From IMG/VR virus record IMGVR_UViG_3300037502_000383, positions 1 to 60,999 of that record: a stretch of 60,999 nucleotides of DNA; one strand, written 5' to 3'. This stretch comes from a virus. Lineage: Duplodnaviria > Caudoviricetes. The notes beneath the pieces are model-generated. The model was not told where the DNA came from. It made no database searches and saw only the letters and a list, made by a program, of their open reading frames with translations. The stretch's first letter is position 1, and every line of letters starts with the position of its first letter. Positions 3,530-55,041 of this stretch are shown here, one piece after another. The translations under genes and the position numbers were made by a program.

Positions 3530-3978
3530 TGGGCACCAACAGACTAGAACGTGAATTGGAAACCCGTGCCATGCAGGAACGTCCCAAGCAGTGGACACCA
3601 CCTGAGCTTTTGCCTGAACCAGATAAGCAGCCCGGTTTTCGATACAGATGGATTCGCACCTCAATACTTGGAAAGACCGATGCCCGTAACATGTCTGCAA
3701 AGATTCGTGAGGGCTGGGAGCCAGTAAAAATCGAGGAGCAGCCAAAATTCCAACTGCTAGTTGATCCCGATAGTCGCTTCAAAGACAACGTCGAGATCGG
3801 CGGATTACTACTCTGCAAGACCCCTGAAGAGTTTGTTGAACAGCGTAATTCTTATTACCAACGACAAGCTGAAGATCAGATTCAGTCTGTAGATAATAGT
3901 CTTATGAAGCAAAGCGACCCTCGTATGCCTCTATTTAAGGAACGTAAATCTACTACGTCCTTTGGTAAGGGCAATTAA
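3529..3978 (+). CDS. Conserved head-module protein
   Basis: Coupled to scaffold stop; YRWIR...EGWEPV...GGLLLC motif. Confidence 0.6.
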   Translation: MGTNRLERELETRAMQERPKQWTPPELLPEPDKQPGFRYRWIRTSILGKTDARNMSAKIREGWEPVKIEEQPKFQLLVDPDSRFKDNVEIGGLLLCKTPEEFVEQRNSYYQRQAEDQIQSVDNSLMKQSDPRMPLFKERKSTTSFGKGN

Positions 3979-3995
3979 ATTTTCTGGAGCTTAAT

Positions 3996-4667
3996 ATGTC
4001 ATATCCGACTGTAGAAGCCCCTTACGGGCTAAAGCCGATCAATCTGATCGGCGGTCAGGTGTTTGCGGGTCAGACTCGTGAACTCCCGATTGCCAGCAAT
4101 ACTGCTGGTGCTATCTATAACGGCGACATCGTTCGCCTATCGTCTGGCTTCATCGTCAAAGAGACTGGTACTACGACTGTCTCGGCAACCGGTGTTGTTG
4201 GCGTGTTTGTTGGCGTATCTTATACCAACCCGTCCACAGGCCAGAAACTGTTCGCTAACTCGTACCCCGGTTCAGTTGTTGCTTCTGATATCGTGGCTTA
4301 TGTCGTTGACGATCCCGATGCGTTGTTTAAGGTCGCTGTGACTGGTGGTGCAACTTCGACCACTATCACCCCGATTTCGGGCACTATCTTAGGCAATAAC
4401 TTGGCGATTTCGCAGCCTTCGACGAACACCACTATTTCGGGTAACTCGAATATTGGCGCGTATGACTCGGGCGGTAACACCGCTTTCACTTTGCCTTTCC
4501 GTGTTGTTGGTTTGGTTGAAGAGACCACCAACTCCGCTGGTAACTACAGCGAAGTGATCGTTAAGTGGAACATGCCGTATATCACTCTGACGGAAGGTGC
4601 TCCTAACGTCGTGGCGTATAACGGCGGTCATTCGTATTACAACCCGACCGGCACTGCCAACGTATAA
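3996..4667 (+). CDS. Capsid decoration/cement protein (probable)
   Basis: PYGLKP, IYNGDIV, GVFVG, VDDPD motifs; beta-rich; directly upstream of MCP; highly expressed codon bias. Confidence 0.6.
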   Translation: MSYPTVEAPYGLKPINLIGGQVFAGQTRELPIASNTAGAIYNGDIVRLSSGFIVKETGTTTVSATGVVGVFVGVSYTNPSTGQKLFANSYPGSVVASDIVAYVVDDPDALFKVAVTGGATSTTITPISGTILGNNLAISQPSTNTTISGNSNIGAYDSGGNTAFTLPFRVVGLVEETTNSAGNYSEVIVKWNMPYITLTEGAPNVVAYNGGHSYYNPTGTANV

Positions 4668-4678
4668 GGAGCTGAATA

Positions 4679-5593
4679 ATGGCTATTTCACGCGCACAAC
4701 TACTGAAAGAGCTGCTCCCCGGCTTGAACGCATTGTTCGGCATGGAGTACGCTCGCTACGGCGAAGAGCACAAGGAAATCTACGAAACCGAGACTTCCGA
4801 GCGTTCGTTCGAAGAAGAAACCAAACTGTCTGGCTTCAGTGCTGCACCGGTGAAGAACGAAGGTTCTGCAATCGCGTACGACAACGGTCAGGAAGCTTGG
4901 ACTGCTCGATACAACCACGAAACCATCGCACTGGGTTTCTCGCTGACCGAAGAGGCCATCGAAGATAACCTGTATGACAGCCTGTCGGCTCGTTATACCA
5001 AAGCGCTGGCTCGTGCTATGTCTTACACCAAGCAGGTTAAGGCGGCATCGGTTCTGAACAACGGCTTTACCAACTCGTCCCAGTACTACGGCGGCGACGG
5101 CAAGCCACTGTTCTCGGCTACCCACCCGCTCGTTTCCGGTGGCACTAACTCGAACATCCCTTCGACACCTGCTGACCTGAACGAAACCTCGTTGGAAAAC
5201 GCTGTGATCCAAATCGCAGCATGGACCGACGAACGCGGCCTGCTGATCGCAGCTAAGCCACGCAAGCTGATCGTTCCACCAGCTCTCCAGTTCGTTGCTA
5301 CTCGTCTGTTGGAAACCGAACTCCGCGTCGGCACCAACGACAACGACATCAACGCGCTGAAGAACAACGGTTCGATCCCAGAAGGCTATACGATCAACCA
5401 CTTCTTGACCGATACGAACGCATGGTTCCTGACCACCGACGTTCCTAACGGCATGAAGCACTTTGTTCGTACTCCGTTGCAGCAGTCAATGGACGGGGAC
5501 TTCGATACAGGGAACGTTCGTTACAAGGCTCGTGAGAGATATTCTTTCGGCTGGAGTGACCCGCTCGGAATGTACGGCTCACAGGGTGCTTAA
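4679..5593 (+). CDS. Major capsid protein (HK97 fold, Mu gpT-like family)
   Basis: MAISRAQLLKELLPGLNALFG N-terminus, DGKPLFS, LIVPPAL motifs; strong SD, strong codon bias, followed by terminator. Confidence 0.9.
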   Translation: MAISRAQLLKELLPGLNALFGMEYARYGEEHKEIYETETSERSFEEETKLSGFSAAPVKNEGSAIAYDNGQEAWTARYNHETIALGFSLTEEAIEDNLYDSLSARYTKALARAMSYTKQVKAASVLNNGFTNSSQYYGGDGKPLFSATHPLVSGGTNSNIPSTPADLNETSLENAVIQIAAWTDERGLLIAAKPRKLIVPPALQFVATRLLETELRVGTNDNDINALKNNGSIPEGYTINHFLTDTNAWFLTTDVPNGMKHFVRTPLQQSMDGDFDTGNVRYKARERYSFGWSDPLGMYGSQGA

Positions 5594-5623
5594 TTGAAGT
5601 AAATCAAGCACTTAGCAGCATTG

Positions 5624-5653
5624 AGAACCCCGCCTTGCGCGGGGTTTTCTTTT
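5624..5653 (+). terminator. Rho-independent terminator after MCP
   Basis: AACCCCGC-loop-GCGGGGTT followed by TTCTTTT. Confidence 0.8.
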
Positions 5654-5694
5654 GCTGTATCATTGCCCGTGTCATATACGACAGGGAGGATAAT

Positions 5695-6273
5695 ATGGAT
5701 TACTCTGCATTTCCAGTAGATCGCGCAACCGCCAAAGCAACTGGGGCCAAGTATTACTACACAGGCAAGCCATGTTTGAGAGGGCACATTACTCTGCGAA
5801 AAACGAAAGGCTCATGCGTTGATTGCATGAAAGAAGACTGGGCGCTGGACAACAAAAAGCGCAGCGAGAAGCCGAAGTCGGAAGCGTCCAAGGCTGCTGG
5901 TAGGCGGTACTATGAGAAGAACAAAGAGGCTGTGAAGGCTCGCGCAAATGCCAGACCAATAGAAGAGCGCCGTGGGCATAGATACAAATACAAAGAGGCC
6001 AATCCAGAACTGTATAAAGCTTTAACCAGCGTGCGTAAAAGGCGGCATCGAAGCGCCACGCCCAAGTGGATTACGCCGGAGCAAAAGCTTGCAATGCGGC
6101 AACTGTATCTTCAGGCAATGGAGCTGACCAAGCTGACCGGCGAGCGCTATGTCGTGGATCACATCGTGCCGCTGATCTCCGATGAGGTGTGCGGCCTGCA
6201 CGTTCCGTGGAACCTGCGGGTGATCACGCAGGAGGAGAATCTGCGCAAGTCGAATAAGCTGCTTGACGCATAG
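5695..6273 (+). CDS. Free-standing HNH homing endonuclease
   Basis: VDHIVPL...CGLHVPWNLRVI...ENLRKSN HNH motif; N-terminal YYTGKPCxRGH...CVDC zinc motif; GGAGG SD. Confidence 0.9.
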   Translation: MDYSAFPVDRATAKATGAKYYYTGKPCLRGHITLRKTKGSCVDCMKEDWALDNKKRSEKPKSEASKAAGRRYYEKNKEAVKARANARPIEERRGHRYKYKEANPELYKALTSVRKRRHRSATPKWITPEQKLAMRQLYLQAMELTKLTGERYVVDHIVPLISDEVCGLHVPWNLRVITQEENLRKSNKLLDA

Positions 6274-19505: not shown

Positions 19506-20300
19506 ATGGCAACGACAATCACAGCGGGTAACGCAACAAACGGCGCGGCGGTCAGTAGTGACAACACCGGCACACTTCAGTTAAAAACGGGTACTGGCGC
19601 GGGCACAACGGCGATAAGTATTGATGCGTCACAAGTGGTGACTATGCCGGGGCCTGTAGCGATACCGGGTAATTTGGTTGTTACAGGCACAATTACTGCG
19701 GGCGCTGGTAGCCCCTATGTATTAAATTCTTACGTTGCGCCAGCTACATGGACAAAACCGACGGGGCTGAAATCTATCAAAGTTACCGTAGTGGGTGCTG
19801 GTGGTGCGGGTGGCCCTGTTACGCCATCAACACCAAGTAATAGTTCTGGTGGTGGCGGTGGCGGAGCGGGCGGTGCAGCTATTGAATACATTCCAGCCCC
19901 CTCAATTCCCGGCCCCGTGGCAGTAACCGCTGGCCCCGGCACAAACAGTTTTGGCGCTTTTTGTTCAGCAACTGCTGGAAGCAACGGAGCAACTGCTGGA
20001 GGTGGTGACTCCGGTGCTGGCGGTGCTGGCGGAGTTGGTAGTGGTGGAACTATTGATTTTACTGGCGGCGGCGGTGTCTCTGGAGTGGCTTCTGGAGGTG
20101 TTGGCGGCGCTGGAGGTAATTCATTATTTGGCTCAGGCGCACGAGGGATTACAACCCCCGGCCCGGTTACGAATACGGCAGGAGCGTCTGGCGGTAATTA
20201 TGGCGGTGGTGGTAGTGGGGCCGGAAAAATTACAACAACAGGAGGGGCATCTGGCGGTGCAGGCGCACCCGGAATCGTTATTGTTGAGGAGTTCTACTAA
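19506..20300 (+). CDS. Glycine-rich tail fibre domain protein (paralog 1)
   Basis: TWTKP...KVTVVGAGGAGG...GAPGIVIVEEFY. Confidence 0.7.
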   Translation: MATTITAGNATNGAAVSSDNTGTLQLKTGTGAGTTAISIDASQVVTMPGPVAIPGNLVVTGTITAGAGSPYVLNSYVAPATWTKPTGLKSIKVTVVGAGGAGGPVTPSTPSNSSGGGGGGAGGAAIEYIPAPSIPGPVAVTAGPGTNSFGAFCSATAGSNGATAGGGDSGAGGAGGVGSGGTIDFTGGGGVSGVASGGVGGAGGNSLFGSGARGITTPGPVTNTAGASGGNYGGGGSGAGKITTTGGASGGAGAPGIVIVEEFY

Positions 20301-21052
20301 TGAGCGCAGGAATTAAAGCAAACGCAGACGGCTCCGGCGCTATACAAGTCGGCGGCACGGATTACATACAGATTGCGTCTACTGGGCCGGTCACGATACC
20401 GGGGAATTTAGTTGTTACTGGCACCGCAACTGTCGGTGGACAACCCGTTGGTGGCAACTACGCACTTAACTCTTATGTCGCTCCTGCTACGTGGACTAAA
20501 CCTGCTGGGTTGAAAGCGGTGAAGGTAACGGTTGTTGGTGCTGGTGGCGCGGGTGGAGCTGCTCCGACGACTACACCCACTCTTGTAAACGTCGGAGCAG
20601 GTGGTGGAGGTGCTGGCGGTGCAGCTATTTACTACGCTCCAGCTCCTTCTATTCCCGGTCCAGTAGCTGTAACTGCGGGTCCCGGTACCAATTCGTTCGG
20701 TGCATTTTGTTCAGCTACTGCGGGAGCAACCGGCGGTTCTGTTGCGGGAACTACTACCTCGGGAGCGCCGGGTGGCGCAGGTGGTGCGGGATCAGGAGGG
20801 TCAATAAATTTTACTGGCGGCGGCGGCGGCGGCGCCACGGGGGGAACCTTTGGGGCAAGTGGTGTTGGTGGGAGTTCAGTATTTGGCGCAGGTGCGCAAG
20901 GCGTACAAGGAGGCCCCGCTGCCGCAACGGCTGGTGTTGCTGGTGGTAATTATGGCGGCGGAGGTAGCGGGGCTGCTAAAAACTCTGTAGGTGCAGGTGC
21001 GGCAGGTGGCACAGGCGCACCCGGTATTGTTATTGTCGAAGAATTTTATTGA
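20300..21052 (+). CDS. Glycine-rich tail fibre domain protein (paralog 2)
   Basis: Same motifs and C-terminus as 19506-20300. Confidence 0.7.
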   Translation: MSAGIKANADGSGAIQVGGTDYIQIASTGPVTIPGNLVVTGTATVGGQPVGGNYALNSYVAPATWTKPAGLKAVKVTVVGAGGAGGAAPTTTPTLVNVGAGGGGAGGAAIYYAPAPSIPGPVAVTAGPGTNSFGAFCSATAGATGGSVAGTTTSGAPGGAGGAGSGGSINFTGGGGGGATGGTFGASGVGGSSVFGAGAQGVQGGPAAATAGVAGGNYGGGGSGAAKNSVGAGAAGGTGAPGIVIVEEFY

Positions 21053-44698: not shown

Positions 44699-45392
44699 CA
44701 GCAAATGCTCCTTTGTAAGTGGCGAATGTAGCGAGCAGTTCTTTGTAGGCCGCATCATCCTGCTGCTCGATAACCTTGTAGATGTTGGCGTTCGTGCGCC
44801 AGATGCTCATCACATCTTCCTTGTTAGAGGCGGCATCAAGCGCAGTAACCGTGGACTCAACAACTACGGCCAACCAATCACCAAACTCTGTGTCAGGCTG
44901 GGCAGATACCTTCAACTGCCACTCGCCGCTCTTGCCTTCCATCTTCTTCGGTGGAGTTGGTGCAGGCGGTGTAGGTGGTGCTGGCTTTGCTACTGGCTTC
45001 GGTGCTGCTACAGGCGCAGGCTTGCTGGCAGCATTACCATCATCGTCAGCCGGAGCGAGGCCAGCCGCAACCATCAGGCTGTACCTGCGAGCGTAGGTCA
45101 GCGCACTGCCAAACCCCTGCGGGTCATGCTTTGATGCTGGCACATACAGCCAACCGGACGACAACTGTTCACCAGACTCGTGAATAAACACGGTCTGGAT
45201 CTTGATGCCGTCGAGATGCTCGTCCGTCAACTGCATCAGGTAGATGCCGTTGTTGTTCAAGCCATCGATTACCGCCTCGATGCAGGCAGACAGGTCTGCG
45301 TACTTCGTGCGGAAGTGAGGATTGCTACTGGTCTTCAGCGCAGGACCAAACTCCTTCTGCGCTTTGACCAGAGCCGTGGCGATATTTTTCAT
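44688..45392 (-). CDS. erf: ERF family ssDNA-annealing recombinase
   Basis: NPHFxxKYADL, HESGE, PQxxGSALTYARRYSL...DDDGN. Confidence 0.9.
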   Translation of the reverse strand: MKNIATALVKAQKEFGPALKTSSNPHFRTKYADLSACIEAVIDGLNNNGIYLMQLTDEHLDGIKIQTVFIHESGEQLSSGWLYVPASKHDPQGFGSALTYARRYSLMVAAGLAPADDDGNAASKPAPVAAPKPVAKPAPPTPPAPTPPKKMEGKSGEWQLKVSAQPDTEFGDWLAVVVESTVTALDAASNKEDVMSIWRTNANIYKVIEQQDDAAYKELLATFATYKGAFADGN

Positions 45393-49161: not shown

Positions 49162-49377
49162 GTTCCGGTATAATTACAGGTGACGAAAGCGGATGCTGGC
49201 GGTCTGTGACTACACGGGCTGGCGCAACCAGTGCAGCGAGTAGTCATCAAGACGCATGAGGATTGCCCTCGGTAAAACGGGGGATGAGCCAGTCCTCAGT
49301 CGTGTTGGTTAAGTTTATAGTAGGTTTGTTTTAAGTTTACAGTGGGCTTGTTTTAAGTTTACAGTCCCAGCAACCAC

Positions 49378-49818: not shown

Positions 49819-50148
49819 GTTACCTGTCCCGGCAGGTAGCCGGGCGCGCCTCCCGCGATAGCAGTGAGCCTGCATGGGCTGCTGGAGAGAGAACACTGGC
49901 CGAGGTCTCACCCGCCTGCGAGCCACGCCACCTGTCAGCGAGGGATGGCACAAGAGGGAAGGGCCAGTGGTGAGACATACCTTCCATCGAGATAATCGCT
50001 GCCTTCTGGGATTGCTAGGCTGCTAACACGTTTCAGTAGCTGGGCAGGGAGGATAACCCCGCCAGTGCTCCGCAAGGAGGGGGGCTATCACCCATGGGGG
50101 AACTAAACGCGGAACATACAATACATGGATGTTGACAGGAACAATGTG

Positions 50149-50177
50149 TTGACATACACTAGATCTAGATGTACATT
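50149..50177 (+). promoter_or_regulatory. Rightward sigma70 promoter upstream of the pentamer-array locus
   Basis: TTGACA-17 bp-TACATT; GGAGG SD downstream. Confidence 0.7.
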
Positions 50178-50201: not shown

Positions 50202-50408
50202 ATGACACAAGCAGAGTTGCTGGAGTTAGCGAAGCAAGCGGGCGGCGATGACTGGGGGATCTTCCGGGACTTCATGCCGGAGGTAGAGAAGCTGGCAGCG
50301 CTGATTGTGGAACGTGAGCGCGAACGTGCGGCCATGATTTGCCACCAGTGCCGGGACTGGGAATACGCCAGCGAGGAGATCGCGTACAGAATTTTGAATC
50401 AAGGGTGA
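50202..50408 (+). CDS. Hypothetical (AERE-family-like)
   Basis: GGGAGG SD; ERERERAAMIC. Confidence 0.65.
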   Translation: MTQAELLELAKQAGGDDWGIFRDFMPEVEKLAALIVERERERAAMICHQCRDWEYASEEIAYRILNQG

Positions 50409-50797
50409 GGCGAGCTTGGGTGCGGAATGGCCGGGCGAGGTGGCATCAGGTTTGGACTGGTAGGGCAGAGCTAGGAATGGCTGGGTCTGGTTCGGTGAGG
50501 AAGGGCGGGGCAGTGGGTAGTTCATTCGATGAGTGAACTATCCAATGCTGGGTCAGGTTAGGCAGAGTTGGGCAGGGATTGGAGAGGCGAGGCAAGTCGA
50601 TGTAAGGTAGGGCGAGGTCAGGTTAGGCTTGGCGGGGTCTGGTTTGGTGCAGCAAGGCGAGGTATGTAGTGGTTGGGTAAGGGCTGCTGTGCAGCGTATA
50701 GACGGTTCTCTGAGCCGTTTATGCGATGCGCGAGCATCATCGGGTACGGCGTGGCAAGTCACGGCGGGGCAAGCCCCGGTTCGGTTAGGTAAGGGTT
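50404..50797 (+). ncRNA. Putative guide-RNA array: three phased GG(Y)NN pentamer tracts separated by two conserved hairpins
   Basis: Tracts 50404-50513 (19/22 pentamers start GG), 50551-50680 (21/26), 50743-50792 (8/10); hairpins 50510-50548 and 50691-50729. Confidence 0.7.
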
Positions 50798-50816
50798 TTT
50801 AACTTTGGAGAACAAA

Positions 50817-51431
50817 ATGTCAAAAGCAAAACAAGTCGCAGAGGTAACTAACGGTGGTGCAGAAACAATTGAATCTGGCATCCCGTACATCGCTCACATC
50901 ACCATCGAGGGCAGTGCTGACTTCCTATTCCATCGATGGAATTGTGAAGCGGTAGAGACCAAAGCTAAAGCAGCCAAGAATTCTGCGGCTAAGAAGACGG
51001 ACGATATTGAGTCTTACGTTTGGCGCAATGACGACGGTGAGCTGTGCTGCCCCGGCGAATACCTGAGACAGTCAGTCATCATGGCGGCGAAGTTTAAGCA
51101 AGATCCACGCAGCCCAAGGAAGAGCGCGATGGATTTGACGAAGGCAGGCGTAGTCAGCCTGACCAATCTGGCTTCGTTTGGTAAAGAGAAATGGGATTAC
51201 GAAGACAAGCGCCGTGTCGTGATCCAGCGGGCTGGTGTCAATCGAGTGCGGCCTGCAATGAAAGCGGGATACCGGTTGGACTTTGATCTGATGATCTTGA
51301 CGCCGGAATATCTGGATCGGTTTTGGATTCAGGACACGCTGTCTACGGCTGGCCGATTGGTTGGGATTGGCGATTTCCGCCCGACGTTTGGCCGGTTCAA
51401 TGTAGTGAAGTTTGAAGTATCAGAAGGATAA
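50817..51431 (+). CDS. Solo RAMP/Cas7-like RNA-binding protein (204 aa)
   Basis: GGAG SD; HITIEGSADFLFH first strand, LCCPGEYLRQSV (cf. RAMP IPGSSLKG), C-terminal Gly-rich loop AGRLVGIGDFRPTFGRFNV; flanked by pentamer arrays. Confidence 0.65.
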   Translation: MSKAKQVAEVTNGGAETIESGIPYIAHITIEGSADFLFHRWNCEAVETKAKAAKNSAAKKTDDIESYVWRNDDGELCCPGEYLRQSVIMAAKFKQDPRSPRKSAMDLTKAGVVSLTNLASFGKEKWDYEDKRRVVIQRAGVNRVRPAMKAGYRLDFDLMILTPEYLDRFWIQDTLSTAGRLVGIGDFRPTFGRFNVVKFEVSEG

Positions 51432-51437
51432 AAACTA

Positions 51438-51492
51438 GGCGTGGCTTGGTGCGGCGAGATCCGGTACGCCAAGGTCAGGCAAGGCAAGGGTT
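51438..51492 (+). ncRNA. Fourth GG(Y)NN pentamer tract directly downstream of the RAMP-like gene
   Basis: GGCGT GGCTT GGTGC GGCGA GATCC GGTAC GCCAA GGTCA GGCAA GGCAA GGGTT. Confidence 0.65.
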
Positions 51493-51508
51493 CTTTAAGG
51501 GGACAATA

Positions 51509-52591
51509 GTGATTCAATTTAACCGCAGTTCAAGCCTTCGTGTTGATTCAGAGATCAACATGATGATCGCAGGGATGACCGCTGGTATCAGTACGCGGCC
51601 ACACCTAGTCACTGACACTCTGCTGGAGCTAGGTGCCAAGTATCCAGAGAATCTGAGATTGGCAGCGATTGCAGCGCGCATGGCGTGGTGGGCAGCGATT
51701 GATTGGGAAGACATAGACTTCATGCTGCCCATCATCCTGCCGCAGAACTTTACCTACAAGCAGGAGATCGTCGCTTGTGCTGGGTTCGAGCGCGCCAACC
51801 GCAAGTGGGGCATCGAAGAGGATCAGTGGTATTTGTACTGCGGCTTTGCTCCGAAGCTGATTACACCCGGCGGTCGAGTGATTCACGGCCACGTTGTGCA
51901 TCGCCCGAAGACCGGCACTGTGTTTGAAATACTTGAAGAGCTGGTGAACACGGCAATCTACGCTGAGATGCAAGGCTATTCGCTGAAGGTGGAAATGACG
52001 GGCGACTGGTGGAAATACGAGGAACCCTTCGAGGAGATCTTTGCGGATGTGTTCGAGTTCTGCCACGGCAAGCTGCCACGCAGTTTGATGGATGGTGCGC
52101 GAACAGAGATGCTCAAGGCATCGGATGCCACGATAGCAGAGTTTGCCTGCCTGAAAGAAGGTTGGTACAACGATATCACCGTGGCTATCAATGATGCGGT
52201 GTCGTATCCATTCCCGCTTGAGCCGGACATTGGCATCATGTATCTGCGCGGTGGCAACGCTTTGCATACGAAGACAGTGCTGCCGCCTGCTGGTCTGATC
52301 TGGCAAGAGCTATCATGGATGAGCAAGTTTGTCCGCCGCCGGGTGGTCATGTCAGATGATCCATCGCTCGGCCAGATGATTCATACCGGCGATGCTTGGG
52401 TGCAGGATCGTACCGATCAGGGCAGCAGCACTTCCTGCTTGCCTGAGATGCAGCACTTTCTTGATATGTACGAGGCCAAGCTGAACTGGTCTTGCCCATC
52501 GGCACCGATAGTCAATTCAGTGCAATGGAGTCGCGTTGACCGTGAGAATTACAGCCAAGTTAATCCTGTCTGGAGGTACATGATCTTATGA
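51509..52591 (+). CDS. Hypothetical, possibly degenerate fucosyltransferase-like (GT-B) protein
   Basis: AAGGGG SD before GTG; IGIMYLRGG and VVMSDD resemble NodZ/GT11/GT23 motifs. Confidence 0.45.
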   Translation: MIQFNRSSSLRVDSEINMMIAGMTAGISTRPHLVTDTLLELGAKYPENLRLAAIAARMAWWAAIDWEDIDFMLPIILPQNFTYKQEIVACAGFERANRKWGIEEDQWYLYCGFAPKLITPGGRVIHGHVVHRPKTGTVFEILEELVNTAIYAEMQGYSLKVEMTGDWWKYEEPFEEIFADVFEFCHGKLPRSLMDGARTEMLKASDATIAEFACLKEGWYNDITVAINDAVSYPFPLEPDIGIMYLRGGNALHTKTVLPPAGLIWQELSWMSKFVRRRVVMSDDPSLGQMIHTGDAWVQDRTDQGSSTSCLPEMQHFLDMYEAKLNWSCPSAPIVNSVQWSRVDRENYSQVNPVWRYMIL

Positions 52592-52710
52592 GTTGGTACG
52601 ACATCATTAGTCAGATACCCTTCGTCGCCGGTGTATTAGTCGGAGCGGGATTGTTTTTATTAATCGCTTTACTCGCAGTGATAGCCTTTTTTTGGGACAG
52701 TGAATCATGA
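52588..52710 (+). CDS. 40-aa single-TM protein (not in ORF track)
   Basis: GGAGG SD; ATGA overlaps on both sides. Confidence 0.55.
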   Translation: MSWYDIISQIPFVAGVLVGAGLFLLIALLAVIAFFWDSES

Positions 52711-53519
52711 ATATCAGCCTAGACAAATTAATAATCAACGCAGGCACACAGTCACGCGCCAAGATTGATGAGAACGTAGTTGCAGATTACGCGGACAGGA
52801 TGAAGGAGGGGGCGCAGTTCCCGCCCGCAATCGTGTTTCATGATGGAGCGGAGTATTTTCTTGCCGACGGTTTCCATCGTTACTTCGCAGCCAAGAAGGT
52901 TGGCAGTCCGGGCATTGCCTGCGATGTGCGCGAAGGAACCCTGCGCGATGCGATTCTGTTTTCATTCTCGGCAAATGGTACGCACGGATTGCAACGCACG
53001 GCGGCAGACAAGCGCAAAGCAATCATGTCTATGCTCACCGATATTGAATGGCAAGACTGGTCTGATCGGGAAATCGCCCGCCAATGCTGCGTCAGTCACA
53101 CATTTGTATCAGCACTTCGCAAAGAAGTCGGCGCAACCAAAGACAAAACAAAGATGAACGTGCGCGGCAAGCCGACAACGCTGATCCGCAAACCAGCAGA
53201 GAAGCAAGAAGAAGAGCAGGCGGAGATGAGCGAGGCAGATATCCAAGCCGAGACCATGAAGTTTGCAGTGCAAGAATTACAAAAGCAGAACGAAGAGTTG
53301 CAAGATCAACTAACAATTGCACAAGCGACAAGCTCTGATGAGATCCAAAGAGAAAAAGCAGAGTCAATCATCAAAGATTTACGCGCACAGATCAGGCTAT
53401 TGGAGATAGAATTAAAAGCAGTCACGATTAGCCGCGATCAGTTCCAAGCAGAGAACGCGCAGCTAATGAAGCAAGTGGCTATGTTGCAGAAGAAGTTGAA
53501 AAAACTCGAAGCGAATTAA
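52707..53519 (+). CDS. ParB/Srx-like N-terminal domain + HTH + coiled coil
   Basis: FPPAIVF...LADGFHRYFA; WSDREIARQCCVSHTFV. Confidence 0.8.
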   Translation: MNISLDKLIINAGTQSRAKIDENVVADYADRMKEGAQFPPAIVFHDGAEYFLADGFHRYFAAKKVGSPGIACDVREGTLRDAILFSFSANGTHGLQRTAADKRKAIMSMLTDIEWQDWSDREIARQCCVSHTFVSALRKEVGATKDKTKMNVRGKPTTLIRKPAEKQEEEQAEMSEADIQAETMKFAVQELQKQNEELQDQLTIAQATSSDEIQREKAESIIKDLRAQIRLLEIELKAVTISRDQFQAENAQLMKQVAMLQKKLKKLEAN

Positions 53520-53565
53520 TTAATCAAGCCCAAGCCAGCGGGTGTGCTGGCAGTTAAGGAGAGTT

Positions 53566-55041
53566 ATGACACTCAATCTCCGCTCCTATCAGGAGCAGAC
53601 GTTGAACGCCCTTCGTGAAGGGTTTGCAAAGGGGAAACGGGCGCAGATACTTTACGCGCCCACAGGCGCAGGCAAGACTGAGATGGCAATCGAACTCATG
53701 CGAGCGACGAAAGCCAAAGGTAACAAAGCGGCCATGCTTCTTGATCGTATCGTTCTGTGCGATCAAACATCCAAGCGACTGGAGAAATACAAGATCGACC
53801 ACGGCGTGATGCAAGCTGGTCACTGGCGCTATCGACCGTATGAACCGCTGCAAGTTTGTTCAGCGCAGACGCTGGAGAAGCGCGGCTCATTCCCCGGATT
53901 GAATCTTCTGATCGTTGATGAAGCGCACCAGACGCGCGAGCAGACTATCGAGTTCATCAAGAACAATCCAGAGATCCGCGTCATTGGCCTGACCGCAACA
54001 CCGTTTACAAAAGGACTCGGCAAGGTTTACGACAATGTGGTCAGCACCGTCACCACAAAAGAACTGGTAGAGCAGAACATCCTTGTCCCGCTGCGCGTGT
54101 TCATCGCAAAAGAAATTGACATGGCCGGAGCGAAGAAGGTTGCGGGCGAATGGTCGCAGCAGGAAGCAAGCACTCGCGGCATGAAGATCACCGGCGATGT
54201 GGTTGCAGAGTGGGTGAAGAAGACGCATGAGATATTTGGCAGACCGCGCAAGACCATTGTGTTTGCAAGCGGCGTAGATCACGGCGCTCACCTTGCCAAT
54301 AAGTTTCAAGAGCAAGGGTTCAATTTCATTTGCATCAGCTACAAAGATGATGACGAGTGGAAGAAGCAGGTCATCGAAGACTTCAGCAAACCGGACACAA
54401 AGATCGTGGGTCTGATCGCAACGGACATTTTGACCAAAGGATTTGATGTGCCGGATGTAATGATCGGCGTGTCGGCCAGACCATTTAGCAAGAGCCTGTC
54501 ATCACACATTCAGCAGATGGGCAGGGTCATGCGTGGTTGTGAGGGCAAAGAGTTTGCGATCTGGTTGGATCATTCCGGTAACTACCTGCGTTTCCGCGAG
54601 GATTGGGATGAGGTATTCGAGGAAGGCGTTGACAAGTTAGACGAGGGCAAAGAGAAGCCGAAGAAGGAACCGACTGAGCGCCTGAAAGAAGCAAGCAAGT
54701 GTCCGGTATGCAGCGCGCTGTGGCCGAGCAATTCTGACACTTGCTACAACTGCGGCCATGTGCGGGAGCGCAAGAACAAAGTCATCGCGGTCGATGGTGA
54801 GATGGTCGAGCTGTCCGGCAGCGCGTCGCGCGAGAGCAAGCAGTCATTCTGGAATCAAATGATCTGGCTACAGCGCTATCAAGGTTGGAGCAAAGGCAGG
54901 GCAGCGCACACATACAAAGATAAGTTTGGCGTTTGGCCGAGGGGTCTGAATGACAACACGCCGGAGATGATTACGTCGGAGACAAAGGCGTTCATCGATA
55001 AGAAGATGCGTCAGTTCCTTAAATCAATCGGGAAACGATAA
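53566..55041 (+). CDS. Superfamily II DEAH helicase with C-terminal Zn finger
   Basis: APTGAGKT, DEAH, GLTATP, QQMGRVMR, CPVC..CYNC. Confidence 0.92.
   Translation: MTLNLRSYQEQTLNALREGFAKGKRAQILYAPTGAGKTEMAIELMRATKAKGNKAAMLLDRIVLCDQTSKRLEKYKIDHGVMQAGHWRYRPYEPLQVCSAQTLEKRGSFPGLNLLIVDEAHQTREQTIEFIKNNPEIRVIGLTATPFTKGLGKVYDNVVSTVTTKELVEQNILVPLRVFIAKEIDMAGAKKVAGEWSQQEASTRGMKITGDVVAEWVKKTHEIFGRPRKTIVFASGVDHGAHLANKFQEQGFNFICISYKDDDEWKKQVIEDFSKPDTKIVGLIATDILTKGFDVPDVMIGVSARPFSKSLSSHIQQMGRVMRGCEGKEFAIWLDHSGNYLRFREDWDEVFEEGVDKLDEGKEKPKKEPTERLKEASKCPVCSALWPSNSDTCYNCGHVRERKNKVIAVDGEMVELSGSASRESKQSFWNQMIWLQRYQGWSKGRAAHTYKDKFGVWPRGLNDNTPEMITSETKAFIDKKMRQFLKSIGKR

What the first reader, a model, noticed from the sequence alone, without database searches (positions are those of the whole stretch)
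50404..51492. Solo RAMP/Cas7-like gene flanked by 5-nt-periodic GG(Y)NN arrays: candidate minimal phage RNA-guided system
Seen: four non-coding tracts keep a strict 5-nt register, with GG (usually GGC/GGT) fixed and the last two bases variable. They are 50404-50513 (22 units, 19 GG), 50551-50680 (26, 21 GG), 50743-50792 (10, 8 GG) and 51438-51487 (10, 8 GG). They bracket one 204-aa gene and sit downstream of a TTGACA-17-TACATT promoter. Established: RAMP proteins (Cas5/6/7, Csm3) have an N-terminal strand, an IPGSSLKG-like motif and a C-terminal Gly-rich loop, and Cas7 filaments read RNA with fixed periodicity; this protein shows loose equivalents (HITIEGSADFLFH, CCPGEYLRQSV, GIGDFRPTFGRF). 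No cas1/cas2/cas3 or CRISPR array was seen. Inference: each protomer binds a constant GGY and displays the variable NN, giving a non-contiguous guide that could silence competing phage or host DNA without a nuclease. I recall a recent description of a similar GGY/NN viral system (VIPR), but could not verify it.
Basis: partly seen in the sequence, partly recalled or inferred. Interest (0 to 1): 0.95.

Follow-up and report, generated by a model that had tools for sequence, protein, structure and literature searches.

The report
VIPR RNA-guided silencing locus in phage
This phage carries a small Cas7-like gene flanked by GGYNN repeat arrays, a further example of the recently described VIPR system that phages use to silence rival phages, so it is real but no longer new.

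Summary
Four strand-specific tracts with a 5-nt period (56 of 68 units start with GG) bracket a 204-aa gene, and no shuffle of the window gives anything similar. The gene is a homologue of the solved SUSP1 Vipr protein (PDB 36pp, profile E 5.5e-18). The residues that SUSP1 Vipr uses to bind GGY are conserved, and the model (pLDDT 94) has a Cas7/Csm3-type fold. Among loci encoding relatives, 75 of 80 viral and 33 of 33 genomic loci carry the same arrays on the gene's strand. One tail is a structured RNA with compensatory base changes. Under the published one-base-skip code, array 3 matches 19 of 20 positions in the 3' end of a phrog_2480-family gene. That gene is the first of a rival phage's replication module. 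The match is in frame, with the skipped base at the codon wobble position. Guides from four related phages hit the same fragment. The window has no self-target. Targets of the other three arrays were not established, and no accessory (vap) gene was recognised. This is a new member of a known kind, from a freshwater-type tailed phage.

The parts
50132..50177 (+). two overlapping sigma-70-like promoter matches (TTGACA-17-TACACT and TTGACA-17-TACATT) upstream of the operon
   Evidence: The count is no higher than in shuffles, so this is position-based inference only.
50202..50408 (+). 68-aa ORF of unknown function; its stop codon overlaps the first repeat unit
   Evidence: No Pfam, PHROG or PADLOC family. 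Homologues lie upstream of vipr in only 2 of the 83 loci held at that point, L003 and L004.
50404..50513 (+). vrRNA array 1: 22 GGYNN units, 19 starting with GG
50509..50549 (+). hairpin tail after array 1
   Evidence: -24.2 kcal/mol, z -6.8, 0 of 200 shuffles fold as well.
50551..50680 (+). vrRNA array 2: 26 GGYNN units, 21 starting with GG
50681..50742 (+). conserved three-hairpin tail after array 2 (P1 GCUGC/GCAGC, a 10-bp P2, and P3 with a GNRA-type loop)
   Evidence: 19 tails from 11 sources (the window and 10 loci), 95.3% of cells paired, 8 of 20 pairs changed on both sides (7 of them in P2), 0 of 500 shuffles reach the observed score. No Rfam family.
50743..50792 (+). vrRNA array 3: 10 units; predicted guide against the phrog_2480-family gene of rival phages; followed by GGGTTTTTAAC and the vipr ribosome-binding site
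   Evidence: The 3' flank is unstructured.
50817..51431 (+). vipr: 204-aa minimal RAMP protein
   Evidence: SUSP1 Vipr, PDB 36pp; pLDDT 94; Cas7/Csm3 fold; phrog_4652; large family.
51438..51492 (+). vrRNA array 4: 10 units plus a terminal GGGTT
   Evidence: Target not established.

Best explanation
The locus is a VIPR (Viral Interference Programmable Repeat) system in the early/replication region of a tailed phage of about 61 kb. By homology and inference, a transcript from upstream of 50202 carries four GGYNN repeat tracts and the vipr gene. Vipr protomers would polymerise one per 5-nt unit. Each would bury GGY in pockets formed by His39, Arg145, Asp186, Phe187 and Arg188 and expose the NN dinucleotides. 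The exposed NN bases would pair with double-stranded target DNA two bases at a time, skipping every third target base, and the bound filament would block transcription. For array 3 the predicted natural target is the 3' end of a phrog_2480-family gene, coding for ...TVKTGKP(T/S)YK. This is the first gene of the replication/recombination module of rival phages. The skipped base falls on the codon wobble position, so synonymous mutations would not allow escape. Shown here: the repeats, homology to a solved Vipr, the fold, co-occurrence of gene and arrays across relatives, structured tails, the target match, and the absence of self-targets. Inferred from the published SUSP1 work: RNA processing, filament formation and silencing.
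For: Repeats: counts and shuffle controls are. The arrays are strand-specific.

Homology: phmmer against PDB gives 36pp_D 'SUSP1 Vipr protein' at E 6.5e-5. A 68-sequence profile gives E 5.5e-18 over profile positions 35-208 against chain residues 5-189 of 202.

Functional residues: the SUSP1 residues named in 10.64898/2026.04.26.720927 section 5 align to identical or similar residues. H17 aligns with H39 (H in 54 of 68 family members), R138 with R145 (67 of 68), D177 with D186 (62 of 68), W178 with F187 (F, Y or H in 55 of 68) and R179 with R188 (66 of 68).

Fold: the AlphaFold2 model has pLDDT 94.0 and pTM 0.87. Foldseek against PDB gives 166 matches at E <= 0.001, led by type VII Cas7 (8z4j_J, E 2.6e-8), then Csm3 and gRAMP.

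Co-occurrence: 75 of 80 IMG/VR loci encoding relatives (52-92% identity) have period-5 GG arrays within 400 nt on the vipr strand, and 3 of 80 have any on the other strand. 33 of 33 bacterial-genome loci have arrays on the vipr strand and none on the other strand. Phage DSL-LC04 (70% identity) also has them.

NN variability: the NN content differs between loci whose vipr genes are 84-92% identical.

Tail: covariation supports a structured RNA.

The code works in this clade: 31 of 273 called guides score >= 16 against the loci, compared with 5 of 273 reversed decoys.

Target of array 3: it matches 19 of 20 positions at L084 6034-6062, in frame, with the skipped base at wobble. It matches 15-16 of 20 positions at the homologous motif in L015, L016, L017, L023 and L024; these matches were found independently and earlier. 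The variant guides of L005 and L006 match the same L084 site at 22 of 22 and 21 of 22. A different L004 guide matches 22 of 26 positions just upstream of the same gene.

Self-targeting: no self-target exceeds the shuffled-guide null, and the window has no homologue of the target gene.

Context: the window is a viral record estimated 95% complete, with portal, major head, tail fibre, exonuclease, helicase and primase genes.
Against: No direct evidence of transcription, processing or RNA binding was obtained.

Arrays 1 and 2 have 22 and 26 units, above the 9-16 reported for the SUSP1 and P. fulva clades. They may be composite.

Arrays 3 and 4 have no structured tail, although the paper describes a conserved tail.

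No vap accessory gene was recognised. The downstream 360-aa gene has only 12 relatives and a weak glycosyltransferase-like fold.

No convincing targets were found for arrays 1, 2 and 4. The hits are at chance level or fall in unrelated genes.

The best array-3 target, L084, has 66.5% GC against 52% for the window. That particular phage may therefore not share a host, and the real target may be an unsampled homologue.

The VIPR type (I-VII) could not be assigned, because the classification data are in supplements that were closed.
Confidence: 0.93

Rival explanations
1. The system is a VIPR system, but its main role is against the host or in hijacking it: some guides silence bacterial genes or bind decoy sites rather than rival phages.
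For: Array 4 matches 18 of 20 positions, in frame, in an alkyl-sulfatase-like gene on a 52.8% GC contig (L118). It matches 20 of 20 positions at the 3' ends of a TolC-like gene and of a small ORF in metagenome contigs. Paper 10.64898/2026.10.15.759431 (abstract and section 8) reports vrRNAs directed at host genome sites.
Against: The three array-4 hits lie in unrelated genes. Their number matches what chance gives: other 18-base scans returned 0, 0, 0 and 1 stray hit, plus 3-4 strays for the array 1 seed. The host is unknown, so no host genome could be scanned.
Confidence: 0.1
2. The repeats act as DNA, for example as iterons, protein-binding sites or G-rich structural elements of a replication origin, and the adjacent protein is a DNA-binding regulator. 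This is how the DSL-LC04 homologue is annotated.
For: The locus sits at the head of the replication module next to ParB-like, helicase and primase genes. GenBank labels the DSL-LC04 homologue a helix-turn-helix regulator.
Against: The arrays lie on the gene's strand in 75 of 80 and 33 of 33 loci and almost never on the other strand, which would not be expected for double-stranded binding sites. The tail shows RNA-type compensatory changes, including G-U pairs. The protein is homologous to an RNA-bound solved Vipr and has a RAMP fold, not a helix-turn-helix fold. The NN dinucleotides match rival-phage genes under the RNA-guide code.
Confidence: 0.02
3. The locus is a degenerate or orphan CRISPR-Cas remnant: a stray Cas7/Csm3 gene that has lost its array and partners, with the repeats unrelated to it.
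For: The top structural matches are Cas7-family subunits.
Against: There is no CRISPR array and no other cas gene. Sequence identity to Cas7 structures is 9-15%, whereas a profile finds SUSP1 Vipr at E 5.5e-18. The repeats travel with the gene across more than 100 loci.
Confidence: 0.02

Closest known systems
SUSP1 VIPR system of Escherichia phage SUSP1 (type II VIPR; Vipr structure PDB 36pp; bioRxiv 10.64898/2026.04.26.720920 and 10.64898/2026.04.26.720927)
   Same: The protein is about 200 aa with detectable sequence homology over nearly its full length, and the GGY-binding residues are conserved. GGYNN arrays lie both upstream and downstream of vipr. The locus is in a phage genome. The predicted target is in another mobile element, in frame, with the skipped base at wobble, and there is no self-target.
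   Different: The relationship is distant: single-sequence E is only 6.5e-5, and tblastn of the phage collection at E 1e-5 does not find SUSP1. Two arrays have 22 and 26 units rather than 9-16. The tails are three plain hairpins or a single hairpin, and two arrays have none; SUSP1 has a pseudoknot tail. No adjacent vap1-like gene was recognised. The target is the replication-module gene of another phage, not a satellite recombinase.
Unannotated VIPR loci of Phage DSL-LC04 (GenBank OR003939.1) and of IMG/VR phages L003-L014
   Same: The Vipr proteins are 70-92% identical. The array layout is the same, and L003-L014 share the same tail types. The array 3 guide is shared with variants in L003, L005 and L006. 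L003 and L004 share the flanking genes.
   Different: The NN content of the other arrays differs completely. The downstream gene differs outside L003 and L004. DSL-LC04 has a 147-aa lysine-rich ORF overlapping the vipr stop codon, which the window lacks.
CRISPR-Cas Cas7-family backbone subunits (type VII Cas7, type III Csm3/Cmr4, gRAMP)
   Same: They share the RRM core, thumb and glycine-rich loop, and they bind one protomer per fixed RNA step with periodic base flipping.
   Different: Here there is no CRISPR array, adaptation genes, Cas5/Cas6 or large subunit. The RNA step is 5 nt with 2 informative bases, against 6 nt with 5. The guide is encoded within the repeats themselves. Sequence identity is 9-15%.

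Membership tests
VIPR system | Vipr protein: a minimal single-RRM RAMP with thumb and G-loop, homologous to characterised Vipr | tested here: met
   PDB 36pp_D SUSP1 Vipr at E 6.5e-5 and profile E 5.5e-18 over about 90% of the chain. Model pLDDT 94. Cas7/Csm3-type fold.
VIPR system | Residues that recognise G1, G2 and Y3 of the repeat (SUSP1 H17, R138, D177, W178, R179) | tested here: met
   They align to H39, R145, D186, F187 and R188. These are conserved in 54-67 of 68 family members. The aromatic residue is Phe instead of Trp.
VIPR system | Tandem GGYNN (YNNGG) repeats of at least 4 units flanking vipr on its strand, with constant GGY and variable NN | tested here: met
   Four arrays total 68 units, 56 starting with GG and 50 of those 56 with Y at position 3; all 16 NN dinucleotides are used. 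Related loci keep GGY but differ in NN.
VIPR system | 9-16 repeats per vrRNA (stated for the SUSP1 and P. fulva clades) | tested here: inconclusive
   Arrays 3 and 4 have 10 units. Arrays 1 and 2 have 22 and 26. Relatives have arrays of 6 to more than 40 units. The ends of the RNAs are unknown, and long arrays may hold several guides.
VIPR system | Conserved structured 3' tail after the repeat tract | tested here: inconclusive
   Met for array 2 (covariation) and array 1 (stable hairpin). Not met for arrays 3 and 4, whose 3' flanks fold no better than shuffles.
VIPR system | Targets follow the one-base-skip rule at >= 80% NN match, usually with the skip at codon wobble, and there is no self-target | tested here: met
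   Array 3 matches 19 of 20 in frame at L084. The target is supported by variant guides of four related phages. No self-target was found. Arrays 1, 2 and 4 are unresolved.
VIPR system | Adjacent vap accessory gene | tested here: inconclusive
   No neighbour has a DNA-binding or nuclease family hit next to vipr. The 360-aa neighbour has 12 relatives and a weak GT-B-like fold. A helicase lies downstream in 34 of 80 loci but also in the vipr-less L084, so it belongs to the replication module. Reference Vap sequences are in supplements I could not open.
VIPR system | Arrays are transcribed into about 100-nt RNAs that co-purify with Vipr and repress targets | not testable with these tools
   Only assembled contigs of one RNA library were available. 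They cannot show transcription.
CRISPR-Cas | CRISPR array of direct repeats separated by spacers | tested here: not met
   Tandem Repeats Finder finds no such array in the window.
CRISPR-Cas | Other cas genes (cas1, cas2, cas5, cas6, large subunit or nuclease) | tested here: not met
   Pfam, PHROG and PADLOC scans of the five genes at 50202-55041 give only generic SF2-helicase similarity. The rest of the window was not scanned against cas models.

The most novel reading that the evidence does not exclude
This clade is a distinct, vap-less VIPR architecture. It has long composite arrays of 22-27 or more units, modular hairpin tails of at least two kinds, and a tail-less guide fused to the vipr leader. 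Guide cassettes move between positions and between phages: the same guide is vipr-proximal in the window and L003 but internal and tailed in L005 and L006. Its array 3 guide binds the 3' end of the gene lying 55-200 nt upstream of the rival's own vrRNA array and vipr in L015-L024-type phages. It would therefore act as a roadblock that silences both the rival's VIPR and its replication genes.
Probability: 0.3. Interest if true: 0.5.

Novelty: new member of a known kind. Interest (0 to 1): 0.35.

Why it matters
The result shows that a sequence-only reader can recognise a VIPR locus. It adds a well-delimited example from an uncultured freshwater-type phage to a system so far characterised only in SUSP1 and a Pseudomonas prophage. 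It gives a concrete, testable guide-target pair: array 3 against the TVKTGKP(T/S)YK-coding end of a phrog_2480-family gene. It shows that the one-base-skip code predicts targets in a clade only distantly related to SUSP1. It also flags deviations worth testing: array length, tail types and the lack of a vap gene. The family is large, with 6283 clusters at 90% identity and 919 representatives at 50% identity, and it remains unannotated or mis-annotated in public records, for example as an HTH regulator in DSL-LC04.

Tried and rejected
Hammerhead or other known RNA families in the tails: Rfam at E <= 10 gave only three chance-level hits.

Self-regulation: no guide matches the window above the shuffled-guide maxima. 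The best matches were 25/44, 29/52, 14/20 and 14/20, against null means of 24.9, 27.9, 14.3 and 14.3.

Array 1, units 1-9 (18-base seed, IMG/VR): 14 hits. Ten lie in one structural gene of more than 2000 aa in AT-rich phages (34-35% GC), in frame, 18 of 18, then random beyond unit 9. Four others lie in non-coding or stop-containing frames. I judged this chance-level or unresolved, because the GC contents are mismatched and no other guide converges on that phage group.

Array 1 units 14-22 and array 2 units 1-9 and 12-20: 0 hits each. A 7-unit match of array 2 in L127 is out of frame and at decoy level.

Array 4: one 18-base hit (L118, sulfatase-like gene) and two 20 of 20 metagenome hits in unrelated genes. 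No convergence, so unresolved.

The exact 20 of 20 array 3 pattern had 0 hits in IMG/VR. The relaxed pattern gave L084, which is real, and L083, a stray not in the homologous gene.

Helicase as an accessory gene: rejected, because the same module occurs without vipr in L084.

Downstream 360-aa gene as vap: it has only 12 relatives. The model has pLDDT 77, its best fold matches are fucosyltransferases at TM 0.30, and the Atlas leads score below 0.9. It is not DNA-binding by any test used.

Expression: one RNA library (X20, assembled contigs only) holds a 242-nt contig over 50544-50769 and contigs over vipr, and none beyond 51528. The tool states that contigs cannot show transcription and that DNA may be present in such libraries, so this is not used as evidence.

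Habitat: metagenomes labelled freshwater, aquatic or drinking water hold 32-48% of the sampled words. Only X2, X3, X6 and X20 were laid.

Host: not determined. There are no tRNA genes, and the nearest genomic relatives (72-74% identity) are in Tepidimonas, Thermomonas, Caldimonas and Burkholderiales records.

VIPR type I-VII could not be assigned. The supplements of all three preprints were closed, so the tables of loci, types and Vap sequences may already list this clade.

Whether more papers exist: the only completed search is (terms vipr, rna-guided, phage, from 2023), which found 17 papers and listed 15, three of them relevant.
Full report
OBSERVATION

A sliding count of in-register GG (at least 7 of 10 units) marks only these four places in the 60,999-base window on the + strand and nothing on the - strand. 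None of 30 dinucleotide-preserving shuffles reaches 7; their maxima are 5-6, against an observed 9. Across the 68 units, position 1 is G in 63 and position 2 is G in 60. Position 3 is a pyrimidine in 50 of the 56 GG units. Positions 4-5 use all 16 dinucleotides.

The tracts bracket a 204-codon ORF at 50817-51431. Two such matches are what shuffled sequence also gives. A 68-codon ORF (50202-50408) lies between the promoter and the first tract.

THE PROTEIN

Pfam and PADLOC give nothing, and PHROGs gives only phrog_4652 of unknown function. Against the sequences of solved structures, the single protein finds 'SUSP1 Vipr protein' (36pp_D, 202 aa) at E 6.5e-5 over the C-terminal 70 residues, including the glycine-rich loop. 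A profile of 68 family members (A1) finds it at E 5.5e-18 over profile positions 35-208 against chain residues 5-189.

The cryo-EM preprint 10.64898/2026.04.26.720927 (sections 5 and 6 read) names the residues that hold the repeat. H17 and D177 hold G1. R138 and W178 hold G2. R179, E71 and M72 hold Y3. In the alignments these correspond to H39, D186, R145, F187, R188, E81 and Y82 of the window protein. Five of these were counted in the family alignment: H39 is kept in 54 of 68 members, R145 in 67, D186 in 62 and R188 in 66, and position 187 is F, Y or H in 55.

AlphaFold2 with this alignment gives pLDDT 94.0 and pTM 0.87. Foldseek against PDB gives 166 matches at E <= 0.001, led by type VII Cas7 (8z4j_J, E 2.6e-8), followed by Csm3 and gRAMP chains at 9-15% identity. 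The Foldseek library stops at 8 April 2026 and does not hold the Vipr entry.

THE FAMILY AND ITS ARRAYS

The protein has 6283 relatives among 90%-identity clusters and 919 representatives at 50% identity.

- In IMG/VR, 80 loci encoding relatives (52-92% identity) were fetched. 75 of the 80 have period-5 GG arrays within 400 nt of the gene on its strand, and 3 of 80 have any such array on the opposite strand. Of the five misses, L059 is cut at the gene's end, L067 has an array further downstream, and L069, L079 and L080 have none.
- In one-per-species bacterial genomes, 33 loci were found, in Tepidimonas, Thermomonas, Caldimonas, Burkholderiales, many Phycisphaerales and others. All 33 have arrays on the gene's strand, and none has arrays on the other strand.
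- The only relative in the GenBank phage collection is Phage DSL-LC04 (70% identity, annotated as a helix-turn-helix regulator). It has arrays directly upstream.
- Loci whose proteins are 84-92% identical keep GGY but have different NN strings.

TAILS

After array 2 lies a 62-nt element (50681-50742) that recurs behind arrays in L003-L014. I aligned 19 copies and proposed a structure of three hairpins. That structure has 95.3% of cells paired, against 23-53% when the partners are slid. Eight of 20 pairs change on both sides, 7 of them in the 10-bp middle helix. None of 500 shuffles reaches the observed score. The minimum-free-energy fold of the window copy alone prefers a long-range alternative to the two outer hairpins, so only the middle helix is firmly supported.

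Array 1 is followed by a different, very stable hairpin (-24.2 kcal/mol, z -6.8). The 3' flanks of arrays 3 and 4 fold no better than shuffles. The flank of array 3 is GGGTTTTTAAC followed by the vipr ribosome-binding site, and this arrangement is conserved in relatives. No Rfam family matches, so these are not the hammerhead-interspersed arrays mentioned in the paper.

TARGETS

The discovery preprint 10.64898/2026.04.26.720920 establishes four points (Results, Discussion and methods 18, 20, 26 and 27 read). The NN dinucleotides pair with double-stranded DNA while skipping one target base per unit. Natural targets reach at least 80% NN match. The skipped base usually falls on codon wobble. Guides do not match their own contig.

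I applied this rule. No window guide matches the window above shuffled-guide maxima.

In an all-against-all search, 273 arrays were scored against the window and 83 loci. These were the arrays of at most 45 units among 284 called; the 11 longer arrays were dropped. 31 guides score >= 16, compared with 5 reversed-guide decoys. The code therefore works in this clade. One low-complexity 'array' (L015 5921-6050) scores high as a decoy too and was ignored.

Array 3 of the window first showed partial matches (15-16 of 20) on the + strand of L015, L016, L017, L023 and L024. All of them lie in the same codons...ARTVK(P/A)GKP(S/T)(F/Y)..., of a 160-aa gene just upstream of those phages' own arrays. That gene matches phrog_2480 at E 2e-31, with a weak match to DUF7173.

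A relaxed 18-base scan of IMG/VR then gave two hits. One (L083) is a stray. The other, L084 6034-6062, is a 19 of 20 match inside a homologue of the same gene (…ARTVKTGKPTYKLEV…), in frame, with every skipped base at wobble.

The guide has variants in related phages. The L005 variant matches L084 at 22 of 22, the L006 variant at 21 of 22, and the L003 variant partially. A different guide from L004 matches 22 of 26 in the 566-nt gap just upstream of the same gene.

L084 has no vipr and no arrays. Its phrog_2480 gene is followed directly by an AAA_24 ATPase, then a helicase and a primase. The window has no homologue of the target gene.

I read this as array 3 being directed at the head of the replication module of rival phages. 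Because L084 has 66.5% GC against the window's 52%, the true rival may be an unsampled homologue with the same peptide motif.

For arrays 1, 2 and 4, five further IMG/VR scans and one metagenome scan gave either nothing or hits consistent with chance. Details are in Tried and rejected.

CONTEXT

The window is a whole IMG/VR virus record, linear, estimated 95% complete. It has portal, major head, virion and tail-fibre proteins, an exonuclease, a ParB-like protein, an SF2 helicase and a primase. It has no tRNA genes. It has no near-identical record in the GenBank phage collection.

The VIPR locus opens the + strand block that continues with a 360-aa gene, then ParB-like, helicase and primase genes. 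The 68-aa and 360-aa neighbours are shared only with L003 and L004. The 360-aa protein has 12 relatives in 5.8 billion clusters and a weak GT-B/fucosyltransferase-like fold. No vap-like gene was recognised. The helicase recurs downstream in 34 of 80 loci, but it is also present in the vipr-less L084 and so belongs to the replication module.

COMPARISON AND NOVELTY

The defining features of VIPR that can be tested on sequence are met:

- homology to Vipr and conserved GGY-binding residues;
- GGYNN arrays on the gene's strand with variable NN;
- viral context and no CRISPR array;
- a target under the one-base-skip rule with wobble register, and no self-target.

Three features are inconclusive: array length (22 and 26 units against 9-16), tails on only two of four arrays, and the vap gene. 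Transcription and RNA binding could not be tested.

The system was published in April-October 2026 in three bioRxiv preprints found. Two later literature searches timed out. The authors collected 2,664 Vipr sequences from NCBI nr, so this clade may already be in their tables, which I could not open. The window itself is an IMG/VR record and so was not among their NCBI-derived loci. The finding is therefore a correct recognition of a known kind of system, and a new member of it, with a specific predicted target.

CAVEATS

- All mechanistic steps beyond sequence and fold are inferred from the SUSP1 work.
- The chance rate of the collection scans is estimated only from my own handful of scans.
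- The array boundaries are set by a simple caller.
- The RNA-library contigs cannot show transcription.

Noticed in passing
L001 (GenBank OR003939.1, Phage DSL-LC04) 3690-4609: A published phage genome carries an unannotated VIPR locus. The vipr homologue (70% identity) is labelled 'helix-turn-helix transcriptional regulator', and period-5 GG arrays lie directly upstream. A 147-aa lysine-rich ORF overlaps the vipr stop codon and has no Pfam hit.
   Followed up: partly
L084 (IMGVR_UViG_3300003964_000012) 5042-6132: This vipr-less phage fragment is hit by guides from five different VIPR phages (the window, L003, L004, L005, L006). The hits are at the 3' end of its phrog_2480-family gene and in the gap upstream of that gene.
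   Followed up: yes
L028-L074, e.g. L030 6101-6130; L084 9783-9840: Guides of L082, L073, L062 and L063 match the codons of a conserved helicase motif (…NVLTTGF…). L082 and L073 have 9-10 perfect units in more than 20 related loci, and L062, L063 and L082 give weaker matches (score 15.5) at the same motif in L084. A conserved replication gene therefore appears to be a common target in this family.
   Followed up: partly
L040, L055, L056 near 4553-4556: A guide of L053 (951-1035) matches inside the 3' end of the vipr genes of three other phages, with 10 of its first 11 units perfect. This fits the published report that VIPR systems target each other.
   Followed up: no
related loci, e.g. L043, L046, L049, L051, L066: Some relatives carry very long uninterrupted GG-register runs. 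The caller gives arrays of 47 to 143 units, far beyond the 9-16 units described for SUSP1-type vrRNAs.
   Followed up: no
window 51509-52591: The 360-aa gene downstream of the locus has only 12 relatives in the large protein collection. It has a weak GT-B/fucosyltransferase-like fold (Foldseek E 1.6e-4, TM 0.30). It may be a phage glycosyltransferase.
   Followed up: partly
window 49309-49365: A 22-nt unit (TTAAGTTTACAGTAGGCTTGTT) is repeated 2.6 times at 91% match in the region between the divergent gene blocks upstream of the locus. It may be an operator or origin-type repeat.
   Followed up: no
window 50552-50555 and 51476: Contigs of relatives differ from the window by insertions inside the arrays: 15 nt in the metagenome run X2 and 5 nt in the RNA-library run X20, both whole numbers of repeat units.
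   Followed up: no
window 19821-20804 and 44911-44960: A low-complexity G-rich repeat from L015 matches these window stretches at 3-nt periodicity, and TRF finds short GGT/GCT-type repeats at 20012 and 44949. This suggests glycine-rich coding repeats in a tail-fibre region.
   Followed up: no
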